This document shows positions 1 to 48,000 of a stretch of 64,000 nt of DNA, piece by piece; positions within the stretch are counted from its first letter, which is position 1; each line of letters starts with the position of its first letter. This DNA comes from Haliotis rubra (Eukaryota). The stretch is taken from NCBI RefSeq assembly GCF_003918875.1, contig NW_025765714.1, positions 1,302,001 through 1,366,000 on the forward strand, given 5' to 3'. Position numbers: made by a program.

Positions 1-3000
1 TTCTTAGTTTCCTTATCTTGTTCCCTTCTGAATAACACAGACTTCTTATTCGAGTCGTGCTGTCTATAATCCATTGTACAACTTGGTTCGGGCGCTTGCG
101 GTACCGGTGTAGCCATGACTTGATAGAAGCCAACTGTCTTTCTACTGAAGGGAAATCGACTCATAGTGTTGCTTACGCGACTTGACTCGATTAATACGCC
201 TTATAATTCGCAACTGTCGCGACGCTCTTTCACCTGAAAAAGAAAGAAAAATTGTATCTAAAAATAATTGTGATGTTACTTTAAAATGATATCGATACAT
301 ACATATAGAATATGTTTATATAGGTAGAACTATTTTAATTAGTTGTCATACTAGTTTCCTCGAAACATATTTTGAATGCCTATCTTTAAAAAACTTGAGA
401 TGTACGTTGATATACAGGGAATGTATTGAAGAACAGCAAATTATAAAATACAAAAGATCGAAATATAATATATTGTTTTAGACCAACATTTGGGTAAAGA
501 ATTACTTTTCGAAGATCATAAAATAACATTTGAAACATGAAATTGTTAACGTCACATACTGATTCGTGTTGATATTACAGAATTACAATTATGGATAATT
601 CTGGATCCGCCTTTGCACTTTGAATGTAGTCATGCAGTCTATTTTCAAAAAACACTGATATTCACAACCAGTTGAAGTATACCTGACTCAATAACACATA
701 GATAAGATAACCATACAGCAACTTACCATGTTTTAGTAAGTCTTTCTTCAAATATATATTTAAAAACAAACAAACAAGTACAGTAGAATATATTGTTTTG
801 TTGGTTTCAACATTCATGTTAATCTAAATAAGAATTGTCGGATTATTGTAAGTTACTAAAACAAACTTGTGCGTGCTCTTTTCAGCTTAAAACTTTAGGT
901 TGGGAACGAAGGTGATCCACGTTTTACAAGTTTTGATAGCTTCTGTAACACGGACGACTGAAGGCTTGTATCCTCGCACTAAGAAATGTAATAGCCCGTT
1001 TGGGGAATAGTATAATGTAACAATTCCCGGTGTCAATGCGCATGCGTCTAGTAAGAAGCCATGTTTTGATGTTTATTTGTGTGTAAAATATTGTGATAAT
1101 AATTCAACCAGACTGCGAAAATGAGGATAATTGCAGCCTTATTTTTTATTCTGGTGCCTTCGATGGCAGCTAAAGAATATCCCGATGATATTTCTCAACT
1201 TCTGAAAGACCCACAGCTTATATATGACCTTGTAAAGCGGCTCGGAAGTGATGTCGATTTATCTTCATCCCCTCAGAAAAAATCTTATTCGGATAAACAT
1301 TCCGATTCGACAGTACATGAAGATACTGATATCAATCGGGATCTCGTTAATAATGAAAACAAGCCGTCGTGCAACACTCGTAAACCTGAAAGGAAGATAA
1401 TAAGGACCGAAGATTCTAGAAAAGCCGGTGCTATATTTCTCGCTTCGTTCGAAAATATTGCCACAAACGAAGAATGTGTATCAAAATGTTGTTCTTCGAA
1501 AGGTTGTGACCTCGCTGTTTATGAAAACAAAGTAAGTACTTGATCTGATAGATTACAGAAGTAACCACGAAATGTGTTCCTAGCGGAATTTATGGTGTTT
1601 GACAGCGCTATATAATGTTACTGATGCAAATGGGAAATATTCCCGGATATGATACAATCTATCGGTTATTTGTTACACCCTGAACTTTGGAAAGAGGTAG
1701 ATATTCATTACTATCACTATCAGTTGTATAGTGTCATTTACATCACTGATCAATACCAGAAGAATAATTCATGAAACGTTCGTTTTTAATGTAGCTTCAA
1801 CAAATGTACCATTAGCTGTCAAATATTACAAGGAAAACACAAACACAAAACTTTGTGAAACATATATCCCAAATTGGATAACATTTGTAACCTATGCTGG
1901 TTCTAAATATACTGTTGATTATAATATGCTATGGTAACAGCTTGTTTATATAAGGATGAGGAAAATATAATGATTCAGATCATTAGAATATAATGAGATT
2001 ATCATGATAATTATATTGTCAACAGCTGTTTAAGAGAGACTCATATTTTTAAATTAGAAGTAAGATACTAGTAATCTGTCTCAGAATAATGTGAGCCACA
2101 TTGTATTTAGATACACTCTGCAAACCATAACATTTTCAGCTTAATAAAACAGGTCAGTGTTTCTTTAATGTTATCATCTACAGACTGGATGAAATGGCGT
2201 CTACTCACCAGAAGGTCCTATAAGAAACACCTACTGTATCTCATGAAGTTCCACCAGTTCAGTGTTGAGTGGCCCCTTGAATCAACTTATCTTGTTATCA
2301 GTGTATTGTCTTTCAAAGTCCAGCTAGCCATGCTTCAGTGATTATGTATTGCCAGAAAGGTTTGTTTGGGCAGTGTAAATTGCCCTCCCCTCTCATTAGC
2401 AGTGTGTCATTCACTGAGCTCAGTGCGAGGGCACAATAAAGTGAGCCATATACACAACAAGGGCAAGAGAAATGCCTCAGGCTATCAGGCAGCTCAAATA
2501 CACCTATATGAATTTTCATGGTCACGCACACCTTATGGATTCTAATGGAAAGACATAACATGATTTGTGCTGGTCTTAGGACAGGCGTGCTTTTACCATG
2601 ATCGACTAAACTAAGGGCAAGGGTCCTCATAGAAAATATATGTCCTCTTATGTTCAGAAATAGTATACCATACGGTACAATAAGATTTGATAATTACTTT
2701 AATTACAGGAGCTTTATATTTCTTATCAAACAAATTGGTACAATCAATATTAGGTGCATCCATCAGGATGCAATGTATCTATTTTTCAGCATCCATTCTT
2801 TACATCTGTACAAACTGGATACACATTTCAGCATTGAATAAAACACTGTTAATTCAGGTGGCAAAACAAGAATACTTTCTTGAACACTTTAATCAGTGGT
2901 TATGAGCATGATGACCACCAGCATTGTTACCTGAGCTGCACAGGTTCACTTGTGTGTTCTGTGTAGCCAAAACGTTTTCTGAGTGAATACTAATCAGCAG

Positions 3001-45000: not shown

Positions 45001-48000
45001 TATTAGTAGTAAGTTGCATCATGTTATACTTTTCTGCAATAACAACCTGGGTAGGAAAATCTGAAAAATGACGCTTACCAATTTTTTTCAACGATTGTTC
45101 GTTGGTAATGAAGCAATCATCAGTTGTAAGATTTCAACCAATTCCCAACACTAGTAGGAACATGATGTAAGTGTGACTGCCTCTTCACATTACTAAATTA
45201 TGTTATATGTCTCATTTGTTATTTCAAAATCCAAGATAAACATGTTAAATAATTCCTACCATGTTTTGCATAACAATTTTATGGATGAAATGTTCGAACT
45301 TTACAACTGGTGTATTAAAGATTTGGTGAACATATTGTAAAGTTGTGCCCAATATTTATTTATCTCAGGTATAATTCAAACAACTGAATCTGTTACATAC
45401 AAGTGCACAATCATACTACTACAACCACACAAGGCTAAATATATTCTCATTCATGTTAATAATCTAAACACCAACGAAAATGCATAATGTGCATCTGTGC
45501 ATGATCAGCAGAATAATAACACTGATGACATCAAACAACCAAATAACCAAAATTAAACATATTCTCTAACCAACCAGGAGTGCGTCCAATCGTGAATTTC
45601 AAACATCTAAAATATGTAACTGCTCTTAAAAATCATAATCAAATGAAACGAAGGCTATTTCTAACATTCCACACATAGGCTCGTGTGGAATGTCACAGAA
45701 GCTTGTCGAACACAAAACAAAACAATAACACATCTATTGATGTCGATGCATTTCGCTTACCATGCAAGTTGTCTACGAGGTTGGAATTGCTGGTACCGCT
45801 CGATCTCCACGCCATTGTTGACCGGGGCACCACAGCAAAGACGAAAGTCACTGAACTTAAAACGACAGCTTTCAGTCTGTCCCAAAACATCACATATCCC
45901 AATGATTCCAGCTAATGGCCATCGCCATTACTCGGCGAAACTACAAAATACAAGAAAAGCATTGCTCATGTAGTTACTATAATTTGAAAGTTTAGTTAAT
46001 AATGTACTGCTTGCAACTGTTGTCAAATTGCCATTGGTATATTTGATGACGCTTACGCGTTTAAACTGACACGCGCACTCACAGACCAGCCCCCATTACT
46101 GACCTTGACCGCCGACGATGACCTTCACCTTTGGGCGACAGGTGCTCATCATTCACGAATGGACGATAAAAGCATACCGCTACATTGACGTACATTCAAA
46201 AGACGCACACTCTTGTAGGTTGGAATTTCGGAGACCATTTATCAAGGAAATAATACGCTTCGAGTAGAAAATATCTCGTGACCTTTGCCGCACGGATAAC
46301 GTAAAAATAAACTGCCCCTATGTCTGTGTATAACATGAGCTATGGAGCCTCTATAAATATCTGTAAGGAAAATATTTTGCCTTCCTTTACGGAGCCAAGA
46401 TCAATTTATATAAAATTTCCTTCTCCTGAAAAAGAATGTTTACCGTTCATCTTTTTTCAACAGATATTCGGGTTGATCACAAATTATCGCTTTTTCCATA
46501 AGCATTAAAGTAACATGGATCACAAAATCAGTCAATCTAACATTGAAGAACCAGACGTAGCATAGCTTGAACTGATTTGATGAACAGACAAGTTTCATAT
46601 ATAAATGTGAAATACATATCCAGTAGGTGTTTTAATCTATAAAAAATAATAGTGTTTAGCAATAAATATTCCAGCAATGTCACGGCTGGGGGACACCAGA
46701 AATAGGCTTCACACATTGTACCCATGTGGGGAATCAGACCCAGATATTCAGCGTAACGAGCGAACGCTTTAAATAACAACTTGGCTATAATTAGTATGTA
46801 TAAGCAGATTAATAAGTAATTGTTTTGTTTCGTTAATATTTCATATTATCTTAAGGGACCGTTCATAACTTATGGCTCGGGGATGGGGGTGGAGTGTGGG
46901 GTGGGGTGTGATGATGTTAGGGGTGGGTGGGTGCTGTGTTATTTTAACCCGTTATGTCCCGAGGAGGTGGGGGGCATCAATTTTGTACACATGTACTGGA
47001 ATATTAAAAACACTATGCTTACAAATTATGGGGGGGATTGATTTTGTTTGTATATGACATGCAGGGTGTCACTTACTTTGTACTTAATGTTGTTGTTTTT
47101 TGGGGGGCGGTGGGGGTGGGGTCATTCACATTGTCCATGCTTCTCCATGCAAATCATATTCACCCCTCCAAGCCATACCATTATGTTTAGGATCCAAGTA
47201 ATCAAGGTAACATGGAGTGGGTAGCTGTAAATCATGATTGGCCACGGGCACCTTAAAAGTGTGCAACCAAAAGTGTAATTAGTAGTTGTTTCTTTCCAAT
47301 ACCGGTGAAGATCCAGGTTAGAATAGATCTTCAGTAACCCATGCTTGCCGTAAGAGGCGACTATAACGGATCGGGGTGGTCAGGCTCGCTGACTTGGTTG
47401 ACACATGTCATCGTATCCCAATTGTGTAGATCGATGCTCATGCTGTTGAGCACAGGATTGTCTGGTGCAGACACGATTATTTACAGACCAACGCCATATA
47501 GCTGGAATATTGCTCAGTGCGGCGTAAAACTAAACTCACTCACTCATCTTTCCAAAATATTTTAACAACGCGGGGATAAAACGTTTACCATTTAAGAAAA
47601 CATAATGATTCACTTTCACTTTCGCCGTAAACAAAATACATACGATATACAAATGAAGATGTCCGCCTATATTTTTCGGCTGATTGGTGAACGGCCGTGA
47701 ACAACGTCATATACGAGGACATGATGATGACGTCATTCAATATTCAAAACATCACGGGGCGGTGGGGTAGCCTAGTGGTTAAAGCGTTAGCTCGTCACGC
47801 CGTAGACCCGGGTTCTATTCCCCACATGGGTACAATGTGTGAAGCCCATTTCTGGTGTCCCCCGTCGTGATATTGCTGGAACATTGCTAAAAGCGGCGCA
47901 AAACTAAAGTCACTCACTCACTCACACAAAACATCGCAGGTTCTTCCGTCTGATATCCCATGATACTTAATTGTAAGGTATTCTCAAATCAACTGTTATC

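What the first reader, a model, noticed from the sequence alone, without database searches (positions are those of the whole stretch)
1121..45815. LRP11-PCMT1 tail-to-tail pair conserved with human
Seen: LRP11-like (+) and PCMT1 (-) are adjacent and convergent. Known: human PCMT1 and LRP11 are adjacent and convergent at 6q25. If this genome is molluscan, the microsynteny dates to the bilaterian ancestor. That supports orthology and hints at a regulatory constraint.
Basis: partly seen in the sequence, partly recalled or inferred. Interest (0 to 1): 0.65.

Follow-up and report, generated by a model that had tools for sequence, protein, structure and literature searches.

The report
Abalone LRP11-like and PCMT gene pair
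In this abalone DNA, a membrane-receptor gene of the LRP11 kind and the protein-repair gene PCMT lie next to each other, pointing at each other as in mammals; this is probably an old neighbourhood kept by descent, of a kind already known by the hundred.

Summary
The window is Haliotis rubra (blacklip abalone): exon 1 of the plus-strand gene is 100% identical to NCBI LOC124272908.

- **Plus-strand gene:** 1121-27012, 8 coding exons, 919 aa. It encodes signal peptide, MANSC/MANEC, EB module, one LDLa, a long disordered stalk, a TM helix and a 29-aa tail.
- **Minus-strand gene:** PCMT, 45815-35769, 5 coding exons, 229 aa. Human PCMT1 is the best PDB match for all 4 exons tested.
- **Arrangement:** the stop codons face each other 8,756 bp apart, and I found no recognisable gene between them.

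The MANSC gene belongs to one vertically inherited lophotrochozoan family, and NCBI of its 42 named hits LRP11(-like). It has an EB module where vertebrate LRP11 has a PKD domain. I could not test grouping with vertebrate LRP11 against MANSC1, MANSC4 or SPINT1, because no named vertebrate LRP11 was reachable. Gene order in other lineages could not be surveyed. Nothing here supports a regulatory constraint. Conserved bilaterian gene pairs are a known class of about 600, so interest is modest.

The parts
1121..27012 (+). LRP11-like gene (NCBI LOC124272908, Haliotis rubra), ATG to stop. Coding exons: 1121-1531, 5884-6157, 18644-18760, 21282-21425, 22554-23684, 24988-25032, 26233-26343, 26486-27012.
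   Evidence: Exon 1 is 100% identical to P0001. tblastn of P0001 on the window gives 8 pieces. All junctions are GT-AG, the phases fit, and the exons sum to 2760 nt = 919 aa plus stop.
1370..1531 (+). First half of the MANSC/MANEC domain, in exon 1. The signal peptide starts at 1121.
   Evidence: PF07502 E 1e-10, profile 3-57 of 89. The hydrophobic N-terminus is read from the translation.
5884..5952 (+). Second half of the MANSC/MANEC domain, in exon 2.
   Evidence: PF07502, profile 51-89, E 8e-4 on the ORF. On the exact exon E is 3e-3, below Pfam's cut-off for the half-domain alone.
18644..18760 (+). Exon 3: cysteine-rich EB module.
   Evidence: PF01683 E 1.7e-5, 25.2 bits against a cut-off of 24.3. 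The same module is found in the octopus, Lymnaea and Capitella relatives.
21282..21425 (+). Exon 4: single LDL-receptor class A module.
   Evidence: PF00057 E 1.1e-8, 35.5 bits.
22554..23684 (+). Exon 5: 377-codon low-complexity stalk rich in Pro, Asp and Ser, with no domain.
   Evidence: No Pfam family at E<=0.01. Composition. 100% identical to P0001 residues 316-692.
24988..25032 (+). 45-nt exon (15 aa), in phase and skippable. It lies 29 bp upstream of where a repeated stretch (minisatellite) begins at 25061.
   Evidence: repeats.
26233..26343 (+). 111-nt exon (37 aa), in phase and skippable.
26860..26922 (+). Transmembrane helix, 21 hydrophobic residues.
   Evidence: Read from the translation. 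No TM predictor was run. Conserved across the family.
26923..27012 (+). 29-aa cytoplasmic tail ending ...NEADYLINGMYL, then the TAA stop.
   Evidence: The last 12 residues are invariant in 13 of 13 aligned lophotrochozoan proteins.
27013..35768 (.). 8,756-bp interval between the two stop codons. It holds the 3' UTRs, the intergenic DNA and a minisatellite array of 49/96-bp period that runs to within about 20 bp of the PCMT stop codon (arrays at 34282-34679 and 34740-35748; self-similarity through 35769).
   Evidence: The 4 largest ORFs have no Pfam hit. Only ATTAAA-type signals are present, at 27470 and 27543 (+) and at 33198 and 33211 (-).
35769..45815 (-). PCMT gene (protein-L-isoaspartate O-methyltransferase), ATG at 45815, TAG at 35771-35769. 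Coding exons: 45815-45761, 41286-41150, 40160-40056, 37002-36790, 35948-35769.
   Evidence: GT-AG junctions, 690 nt = 229 aa plus stop. PF01135 on exons 2-5. Human PCMT1 1i1n is the best PDB hit for exons 2-5.
3373..4328 (-). Tc1/mariner-type transposase remnant in intron 1. Not part of the gene.
   Evidence: PF13358 DDE_3 E 3.2e-14; weak HTH matches below cut-off.
11117..16102 (.). Insert of about 5 kb in intron 2, bounded by inverted repeats of about 200 bp. Unclassified.
   Evidence: Inverted repeats 92.6% identical over 202 bp. Three of its ORFs have no Pfam hit.

Best explanation
The window is a stretch of the Haliotis rubra genome holding two ordinary, intact genes that converge on a shared 8.8-kb 3' interval.

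(1) A type I membrane protein. Outside the cell it has a signal peptide, a MANSC/MANEC domain (a PAN/apple-type fold in HAI-1 according to a paper's discussion), an EB module, one calcium-type LDLa module and a long disordered stalk. Then come one TM helix and a 29-residue tail. By analogy with LDLa and MANEC receptors I infer that it binds an extracellular ligand or protease. From the tail's ExxxLI-like stretch I infer that it is sorted or endocytosed through that tail.

(2) PCMT, the AdoMet-dependent methyltransferase that starts the repair of isoaspartyl residues.

The first gene is the abalone member of a single-copy lophotrochozoan family that is the protostome counterpart of vertebrate LRP11, and possibly of LRP11 together with its MANSC paralogues. 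Its convergent adjacency to PCMT matches the mammalian PCMT1-LRP11 neighbourhood. That is most simply explained by retention of an ancestral bilaterian linkage in two slowly rearranging lineages.

Shown: gene structures, domains, adjacency, orientation, species, and family membership within Lophotrochozoa.
Inferred: orthology to vertebrate LRP11, ancestral retention, and the function of the tail.
For: - Species and gene: exon 1 is 100% identical to H. rubra LOC124272908.
- Structures.
- Domains.
- PCMT against human PCMT1, exon by exon: E 3.7e-14, 1.2e-10, 1.4e-20 and 5.3e-21, colinear.
- Family: the TM-plus-tail part of the last exon found 53 proteins among 298 candidates. 42 are named, all lophotrochozoan (39 molluscs, 1 annelid, 2 nemerteans). 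48 of 53 carry MANEC and 32 of 53 carry LDLa. 8 of the 42 named are called LRP11(-like) and none is called MANSC1 or SPINT1.
- Tree: 37 named members with 3 bird MANSC1 as outgroup. Gastropods form one clade (SH-aLRT 95) and the two Haliotis rows pair at 100. Orders mostly group as in taxonomy, which fits one vertically inherited gene.
- Wider range: the profile search of 1.84 billion representatives gave 244 proteins at E<=1e-30. 92 of the 117 proteins new in that list end in NGMYL.
- The nearest named Atlas cluster outside molluscs is an arthropod cluster automatically named LRP11, score 0.91, 500 members, LDLa and MANEC in 100%.
- Mammalian neighbourhood: the sheep gene list runs ...NUP43, PCMT1, LRP11, and the human locus holds all three.
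- PAN/apple fold of the HAI-1 MANEC domain.
- Chance (inference, no call): for a named pair, adjacency under random order is about 2/N genes, roughly 1e-4. Even if both genes are confined to one ancestral linkage group it stays below 1%.
Against: - No named vertebrate LRP11 could be compared. In the word-indexed profile search the only named vertebrate hits were bird MANSC1 (E 1.9e-6, 2.7e-5, 2.3e-3) and a turtle CUB protein.
- Bird MANSC1 shares both the MANSC domain and the DYLINGMY motif. The abalone gene may therefore be co-orthologous to several vertebrate genes.
- No PKD domain was found in the abalone exons or in 3 relatives. Human LRP11 is described with one.
- Neither Atlas call showed a chordate LRP11 row. 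Chordate rows were MANSC4 and MANS1, both at 0.79, which is lead level only.
- Only two lineages support the linkage, while the published criterion needs four.
- No NUP43-like or other gene was seen in the 18 kb beyond PCMT: 19 ORFs of 70 aa or more between 46.5 and 56.8 kb gave no Pfam hit, and one more at 48441-48821 gave none. The wider mammalian order is therefore not visible here.
- The convergent orientation in human is recalled, not checked.
Confidence: 0.6

Rival explanations
1. The adjacency arose independently in the abalone lineage and in vertebrates, by chance rearrangement, and is not inherited from the bilaterian ancestor.
For: Only two lineages are in hand. The published survey needed four lineages to keep the false-positive rate per pair below 0.0002. 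A scan of many windows will meet a few chance coincidences. No third mammalian neighbour such as NUP43 was seen in the 18 kb flanking PCMT.
Against: For one named pair, chance adjacency in the same convergent orientation is improbable (inference: about 1e-4 or less under random order). Molluscs are among the lineages that keep most ancient pairs: Lottia retains 448-492 of them (passage seen).
Confidence: 0.2
2. The plus-strand gene is not the one-to-one orthologue of LRP11. It is either the single protostome representative of a wider MANSC-and-tail family that gave LRP11, MANSC1, MANSC4 and perhaps SPINT1 in vertebrates, or a member of a different MANSC family. On that view 'LRP11-PCMT1 synteny' is at best conserved for one of several co-orthologues.
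For: Bird MANSC1 proteins are the only named vertebrate hits sharing MANSC and tail with the family profile. They share the MANSC domain and the DYLINGMY motif with the abalone protein (BLASTP E 3e-5 and 8e-5). The abalone protein has EB instead of PKD. The MANEC part of the profile matches HAI-1/SPINT1 at E 5.7e-13.
Against: MANSC1 lacks LDLa and its tail matches DUF5585, which the abalone tail does not. The LDLa-plus-MANEC-plus-tail architecture is what LRP11 is described as having. NCBI names 8 family members LRP11(-like) and none MANSC1. 15 unnamed top hits of 227-575 aa end in ...ESDYLINGMYL; by recall I take them for vertebrate LRP11, unverified.
Confidence: 0.3
3. The pair is held together by a functional constraint in the shared 3' interval or in each other's introns: enhancers, an insulator, or control of transcriptional read-through.
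For: The orientation is the same in two phyla (abalone, human by recall). The stop-to-stop interval is short, 8,756 bp. Many conserved pairs are attributed to cis-regulatory constraints (abstract and passages seen).
Against: Nothing in the window points to it. The interval and the introns are filled with minisatellites and transposon remnants. No RNA family was found. Neither gene is a developmental regulator of the kind that anchors regulatory blocks. The orientation enriched among conserved pairs is 5'-5', not 3'-3'. No second genome was available to look for conserved non-coding sequence.
Confidence: 0.12

Closest known systems
[quoted passage not shown]
   Same: Type I membrane protein with an N-terminal MANEC/MANSC domain, a single LDLa module, one TM helix and a short tail (human architecture from passages of PMC12580866). 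It is the neighbour of PCMT1 in sheep.
   Different: An EB module stands where LRP11 has a PKD domain. A disordered stalk of about 430 aa (exons 5-7) makes the protein 919 aa; the human length of about 500 aa is my recall. Grouping with LRP11 rather than its paralogues was not tested.
Lophotrochozoan MANSC-EB-LDLa family (for example Octopus vulgaris 'LRP11-like isoform X2', Capitella CAPTEDRAFT_225456)
   Same: Same domain order, same TM helix and the same last 12 residues. The abalone protein sits inside the gastropod clade.
   Different: Only the length of the disordered stalk differs: short forms are 450-550 aa and long forms 850-1200 aa.
MANSC1 (bird references P0055, P0056, P0058)
   Same: MANEC domain, single TM helix and a DYLINGMY motif near the C-terminus.
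   Different: No LDLa and no EB. Its tail matches DUF5585 and runs 2 residues past the motif. It scores only 46 bits against the family profile.
HAI-1 / SPINT1
   Same: The MANEC domain matches the family profile at E 5.7e-13 (5h7v) and 1.6e-10 (2msx). It also has an LDLa module and a TM helix.
   Different: HAI-1 has a PKD domain and two Kunitz domains. None was found here.
Human PCMT1 (PDB 1i1n) and Drosophila Pcmt (1r18)
   Same: Colinear match of exons 2-5 to residues 19-226 of 1i1n. The GSGSG AdoMet motif and the C-terminal end are conserved.
   Different: Nothing of note; this is an ordinary orthologue.
Conserved ancestral microsyntenic pairs (CAMPs; Irimia et al. 2012, PMC3514665)
   Same: Two unrelated genes adjacent in a mollusc and in mammals.
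   Different: CAMPs are defined by linkage in four or more lineages and are enriched for the 5'-5' orientation. This pair is 3'-3' and is documented here in two lineages. Neither gene is named in that paper's main text. Its supplementary lists could not be seen.

Membership tests
LRP11 (vertebrate definition) | N-terminal MANEC/MANSC domain | tested here: met
   PF07502 E 1e-10 on exon 1 and profile 51-89 on exon 2. PF07502 is precomputed on P0001.
LRP11 (vertebrate definition) | PKD domain between MANEC and LDLa | tested here: not met
   No PKD family at E<=0.01 on any exon or on the relatives P0012, P0005 and P0049. EB module PF01683 stands there instead. The human architecture comes from PMC12580866 passages.
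LRP11 (vertebrate definition) | A single LDL-receptor class A module | tested here: met
   PF00057 E 1.1e-8 on exon 4, the only such module found.
LRP11 (vertebrate definition) | Single-pass type I topology with a short cytoplasmic tail | tested here: met
   Read from the translation: hydrophobic N-terminus, a 21-residue hydrophobic stretch, then a basic cluster and a 29-aa tail. No predictor was run.
LRP11 (vertebrate definition) | Groups with vertebrate LRP11 rather than MANSC1, MANSC4 or SPINT1 (reciprocal best hit or tree) | tested here: inconclusive
   NCBI names 8 of 42 named relatives LRP11(-like). The only named vertebrate hits were MANSC1 and a CUB protein.
Lophotrochozoan MANSC-EB-LDLa-tail family | Domain order, plus an invariant TM helix and the C-terminal ...NEADYLINGMYL | tested here: met
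   The tree places the window's protein with H. cracherodii (100) inside gastropods (95).
PCMT (PF01135, protein-L-isoaspartate O-methyltransferase) | Colinear PCMT domain over the whole protein | tested here: met
   Exons 2-5 match profile 11-64, 55-100, 96-159 and 158-209 of 210.
PCMT (PF01135, protein-L-isoaspartate O-methyltransferase) | AdoMet-binding glycine-rich motif I | tested here: met
   'aldvgsgsg' is aligned identically to human PCMT1 residues 80-88. That this is motif I is established knowledge of class I methyltransferases, which I recall.
PCMT (PF01135, protein-L-isoaspartate O-methyltransferase) | Isoaspartyl methyltransferase activity | not testable with these tools
   Needs an enzyme assay.
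Conserved ancestral microsyntenic pair (CAMP) | Orthologues linked, with 4 or fewer intervening genes, in four or more major lineages | tested here: inconclusive
   Two lineages only: the mollusc by this window and mammals by gene lists in papers. No eukaryotic genome collection was available.
Conserved ancestral microsyntenic pair (CAMP) | Conserved relative orientation | not tested
   Abalone is convergent. The human orientation is recalled only.

The most novel reading that the evidence does not exclude
PCMT1 and LRP11 form a bilaterian-old, strictly convergent gene pair that selection holds together through their shared 3' interval, for example by termination or insulation that protects both genes, or by enhancers of one lying in the other. 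In the same gene, the invariant C-terminal ...DYL(I/V)NGMYL tail would be an undescribed sorting or PDZ-type signal common to LRP11, MANSC1 and C11orf24-type membrane proteins across animals.
Probability: 0.12. Interest if true: 0.55.

Novelty: new member of a known kind. Interest (0 to 1): 0.3.

Why it matters
If the survey of other phyla confirms it, this would be one more ancient microsyntenic pair, and one of the less common 3'-3' kind. It would also give positional evidence for assigning the poorly annotated protostome MANSC-LDLa genes to LRP11. In one search many of these carry 'uncharacterized' or plainly spurious names.

That helps annotation and orthology calls, but it does not change what is known about genome evolution, since about 600 such pairs are already described.

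The more useful by-product may be the invariant C-terminal tail of this receptor family. No paper in the searched library mentions it, and it is directly testable by mutagenesis and trafficking assays.

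Tried and rejected
- **Exon 1 search.** Exon 1 alone as a query ('longer') reached only the two Haliotis proteins, 2 of 192 candidates. It is too diverged for word-based search.
- **Profile A2 in the word-indexed search.** It gave 20 hits among 6628 candidates and no vertebrate LRP11. This is weak evidence either way, because candidates must share exact 5-residue words.
- **Names for the exhaustive-search hits.** 15 of them end in ...ESDYLINGMYL and may be vertebrate, possibly human, so I did not align, scan or search with them.
- **Atlas.** The stored homologues P0012 and P0097 showed arthropod and mollusc clusters but no chordate LRP11 row. The display shows only the best of each Pfam set, so this does not exclude one.
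- **PDB.** It holds no LRP11; only the HAI-1 MANEC domain and many LDLa modules matched.
- **A third conserved neighbour beyond PCMT.** 19 ORFs of 70 aa or more between 46.5 and 56.8 kb, and one more at 48441-48821, gave no Pfam hit. Short exons would be missed.
- **DUF5585.** I tested whether the abalone tail matches the MANSC1-type tail family. It does not, even at E<=5.
- **Tyrosine-recombinase guess.** I suspected this for the 5-kb intron-2 insert. Pfam found nothing on 3 of its ORFs, so I dropped the label.
- **Literature.** No paper in the library links microsynteny with PCMT1, LRP11 or NUP43. In one search, 23 papers held at least 2 of the terms and 20 were listed. In one search, 29 papers did and 25 were listed, all with 0 occurrences of 'microsynteny'. 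One search found 0 papers. Supplements, where pair lists live, are closed.
- Two PDB queries failed on my frame errors. I corrected and repeated them.

Full report
**What the window is.** The 64-kb window has no N, 41% G+C and a CpG observed/expected ratio of 0.35. Exon 1 of the plus-strand gene is 100% identical to 'uncharacterized protein LOC124272908 isoform X1 [Haliotis rubra]' (P0001, 919 aa). It is 85% identical to the H. cracherodii protein (2 hits among 192 candidates). The window is not human. I fetched and compared no human contig. What I say about human gene order comes from papers and, where marked, from recall.

**How I searched.** I neither built nor searched a joined model of my own. 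This leaves a full-length reciprocal search from the window's own product undone. To reach further I used profiles built only from NCBI-named proteins of other species, found with the last exon (alignments A1 and A2).

**The plus-strand gene.**
- Reading the frames and junctions gave six in-phase GT-AG exons, 867 aa.
- Aligning the NCBI protein to the window added two small in-phase exons of 45 nt and 111 nt.
- The eight exons are 1121-1531, 5884-6157, 18644-18760, 21282-21425, 22554-23684, 24988-25032, 26233-26343 and 26486-27012. They sum to 2760 nt, which is 919 aa plus the stop.
Both small exons are multiples of three, so isoforms of 867, 904 and 919 aa are all in frame.
- Exon by exon, Pfam finds MANEC/MANSC split over exons 1 and 2 (E 1e-10 at profile 3-57; profile 51-89 at E 8e-4), an EB module in exon 3 (E 1.7e-5) and one LDLa in exon 4 (E 1.1e-8). 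It finds nothing in the 377-codon Pro/Asp/Ser-rich exon 5 or in the small exons.
- The last exon carries a 21-residue hydrophobic helix, a basic cluster and a 29-residue tail ending ...NEADYLINGMYL.

**PCMT.**
- On the minus strand, five GT-AG coding exons give 229 aa: 45815-45761, 41286-41150, 40160-40056, 37002-36790 and 35948-35769.
- Exons 2-5 match PF01135 colinearly.
- Each of them has human PCMT1 (PDB 1i1n) as its best solved relative, aligned to residues 19-63, 64-98, 103-167 and 168-226. The E-values are 3.7e-14, 1.2e-10, 1.4e-20 and 5.3e-21.
- The glycine-rich AdoMet motif is intact. This is an ordinary, intact PCMT orthologue.

**The arrangement.**
- The two stop codons face each other across 8,756 bp.
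- In that interval the four largest ORFs have no Pfam match and Rfam finds nothing anywhere in the window.
- A minisatellite of 49/96-bp period (34282-35748 by TRF; self-similarity through 35769) runs to within about 20 bp of the PCMT stop codon.
- Only ATTAAA-type poly(A) signals are present.
I cannot exclude a short or unknown gene in the gap.
- Beyond PCMT's start, 19 ORFs of 70 aa or more between 46.5 and 56.8 kb have no Pfam match, and nor does one more at 48441-48821. The last 6.5 kb is a 40-bp satellite. No third gene is visible.

**Is the plus-strand gene 'LRP11'? Evidence within protostomes.**
- The TM-plus-tail part of the last exon retrieved 53 proteins among 298 candidates.
- 42 of them are named, and all of those are lophotrochozoan: 39 molluscs, Capitella and two nemerteans.
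- 48 of 53 carry MANEC and 32 of 53 carry LDLa.
- NCBI of the 42 LRP11 or LRP11-like. None is called MANSC1 or SPINT1. Several bear plainly spurious names that seem to come from the low-complexity stalk.
- In an alignment of 13 named members the last 12 residues are invariant, and the TM helix nearly so.
- A quick maximum-likelihood tree of 37 named members, with three bird MANSC1 proteins as outgroup, recovers gastropods (SH-aLRT 95), the Haliotis pair (100), cephalopods and several bivalve orders.
- From that tree I left out the 11 unnamed hits and the named rows P0006, P0016, P0026, P0037, P0043 and P0054. Six long branches are flagged and deep nodes are open.
- This fits one vertically inherited gene per genome.

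**Is it 'LRP11'? Evidence beyond Lophotrochozoa.**
- The A1 profile against 1.84 billion representatives found 6251 proteins at E<=1e-3 and 244 at E<=1e-30.
- 92 of the 117 proteins new in the best-150 list end in NGMYL.
- The nearest named Atlas cluster outside molluscs is an arthropod cluster automatically named LRP11 (score 0.91, 500 members, LDLa and MANEC in 100%).

**The weak link is the vertebrate end.**
- Human LRP11 is described as MANEC-PKD-LDLRA-TM and as the closest homologue of HAI-1 (PMC12580866, passages seen). The abalone protein and three relatives have EB, not PKD.
- In the word-indexed profile search the only named vertebrate hits were three bird MANSC1 proteins (E 1.9e-6 to 2.3e-3) and a turtle CUB protein.
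- MANSC1 shares the MANSC domain and a DYLINGMY motif with the abalone protein. It lacks LDLa, and its tail matches DUF5585, which the abalone tail does not.
- Fifteen unnamed proteins among the best 150 (227-575 aa) end in ...ESDYLINGMYL. By recall I take them for vertebrate LRP11.
- The PDB holds no LRP11. The profile's MANEC part matches HAI-1 at E 5.7e-13.
- My reading is that this is the protostome counterpart of LRP11, possibly co-orthologous to LRP11 and its MANSC paralogues.

**The synteny claim.**
- A sheep association paper lists the genes of one 1-Mb window in the order ...LATS1, NUP43, PCMT1, LRP11 (PMC9104502, one table passage seen).
- A human paper places LRP11, NUP43 and PCMT1 at the TAB2 locus (PMC13133067, one passage seen).
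- That the human pair is convergent is my recall.
- No tool here holds eukaryotic genomes, so amphioxus, annelids, bivalves and cnidarians could not be surveyed.
- For one named pair, chance adjacency is improbable (inference: of the order of 1e-4 under random order). I therefore favour retention from a common ancestor.
- The published standard for a conserved ancestral pair is linkage in four or more lineages (Irimia et al. 2012, PMC3514665, methods passage seen). I have two.
- That survey found about 600 such pairs, enriched for the 5'-5' orientation, and its main text names neither gene.
- Three further searches found no paper that links microsynteny with these genes.

**Regulatory constraint.** Nothing in the window speaks for it. 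The shared interval and the introns hold minisatellites, a Tc1/mariner remnant and a 5-kb element with inverted repeats. Neither gene is a developmental regulator. I rate it a possibility, not a finding.

**Mechanism, as far as it can be stated.**
- PCMT methylates isoaspartyl residues with AdoMet to start their repair. This is established for the family, and the motifs are intact here.
- The LRP11-like protein is a single-pass surface protein. Its MANSC (a PAN/apple-type fold in HAI-1), EB and LDLa modules probably bind an extracellular partner.
- I read its invariant tail as a sorting signal. It contains an E-x-x-x-L-I stretch, which is the acidic dileucine pattern, and it ends in a hydrophobic-x-hydrophobic carboxy-terminus. 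Both readings come from recalled motif rules and are untested.

**Verdict.** This is a plausible additional example of a known phenomenon, of modest interest.

Noticed in passing
window 26860-27012 (+); alignment A1: The TM helix and the last 12 residues (...NEADYLINGMYL) are invariant in 13 of 13 named lophotrochozoan proteins. 92 of 117 further unnamed hits of the profile search end in NGMYL. Bird MANSC1 carries DYLINGMY near its end. No paper in the library contains the motif: one search returned one hit, which I took for chance from its title without opening it.
   Followed up: partly
window 24988-25032 and 26233-26343 (+): Two small in-phase exons of 45 and 111 nt can be skipped without breaking the frame. 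The 45-nt exon lies 29 bp upstream of where a repeated stretch (minisatellite) begins at 25061.
   Followed up: yes
window 3373-4328 (-): Tc1/mariner-type transposase remnant (DDE_3, E 3.2e-14) split over two overlapping ORFs, in intron 1 of the LRP11-like gene.
   Followed up: partly
window 11117-16102: Insert of about 5 kb in intron 2, bounded by inverted repeats of about 200 bp that are 92.6% identical. It has several broken ORFs; three were tested and have no Pfam match. Unclassified mobile element.
   Followed up: partly
window 25147-26074, 34282-35748, 36421-36756, 37451-38811, 41487-43511, 52518-54403, 57286-63791: Many minisatellites of 36-52-bp period lie in the introns of both genes and in the flanks. 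One array runs to within about 20 bp of the PCMT stop codon. A 6.5-kb array of a 40-bp unit has strong negative GC skew, about -0.4. 27% of the window is similar to another part of it.
   Followed up: no
window 5298-5459, 33726-33900, 39687-39852, 46665-46772, 47755-47924, 63892-63999: A dispersed repeat of about 110-180 bp, with up to 5 matching copies in the window, lies in introns and flanks of both genes. It is SINE- or MITE-like. No tRNA or other RNA family match was reported.
   Followed up: no
hits (P0011, P0017, P0024, P0033, P0053): Orthologues of this gene in other molluscs and a nemertean carry database names such as dentin sialophosphoprotein, nuclear receptor coactivator 6, ARID1A-like and osa-like. 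These probably come from matches to the low-complexity stalk and are likely misannotations.
   Followed up: no
window 45816-64000: No recognisable gene lies in the 18 kb upstream of PCMT: 19 ORFs of 70 aa or more between 46.5 and 56.8 kb, and one more at 48441-48821, have no Pfam hit. In sheep, NUP43 is listed next to PCMT1, but it is not seen here within the window.
   Followed up: partly
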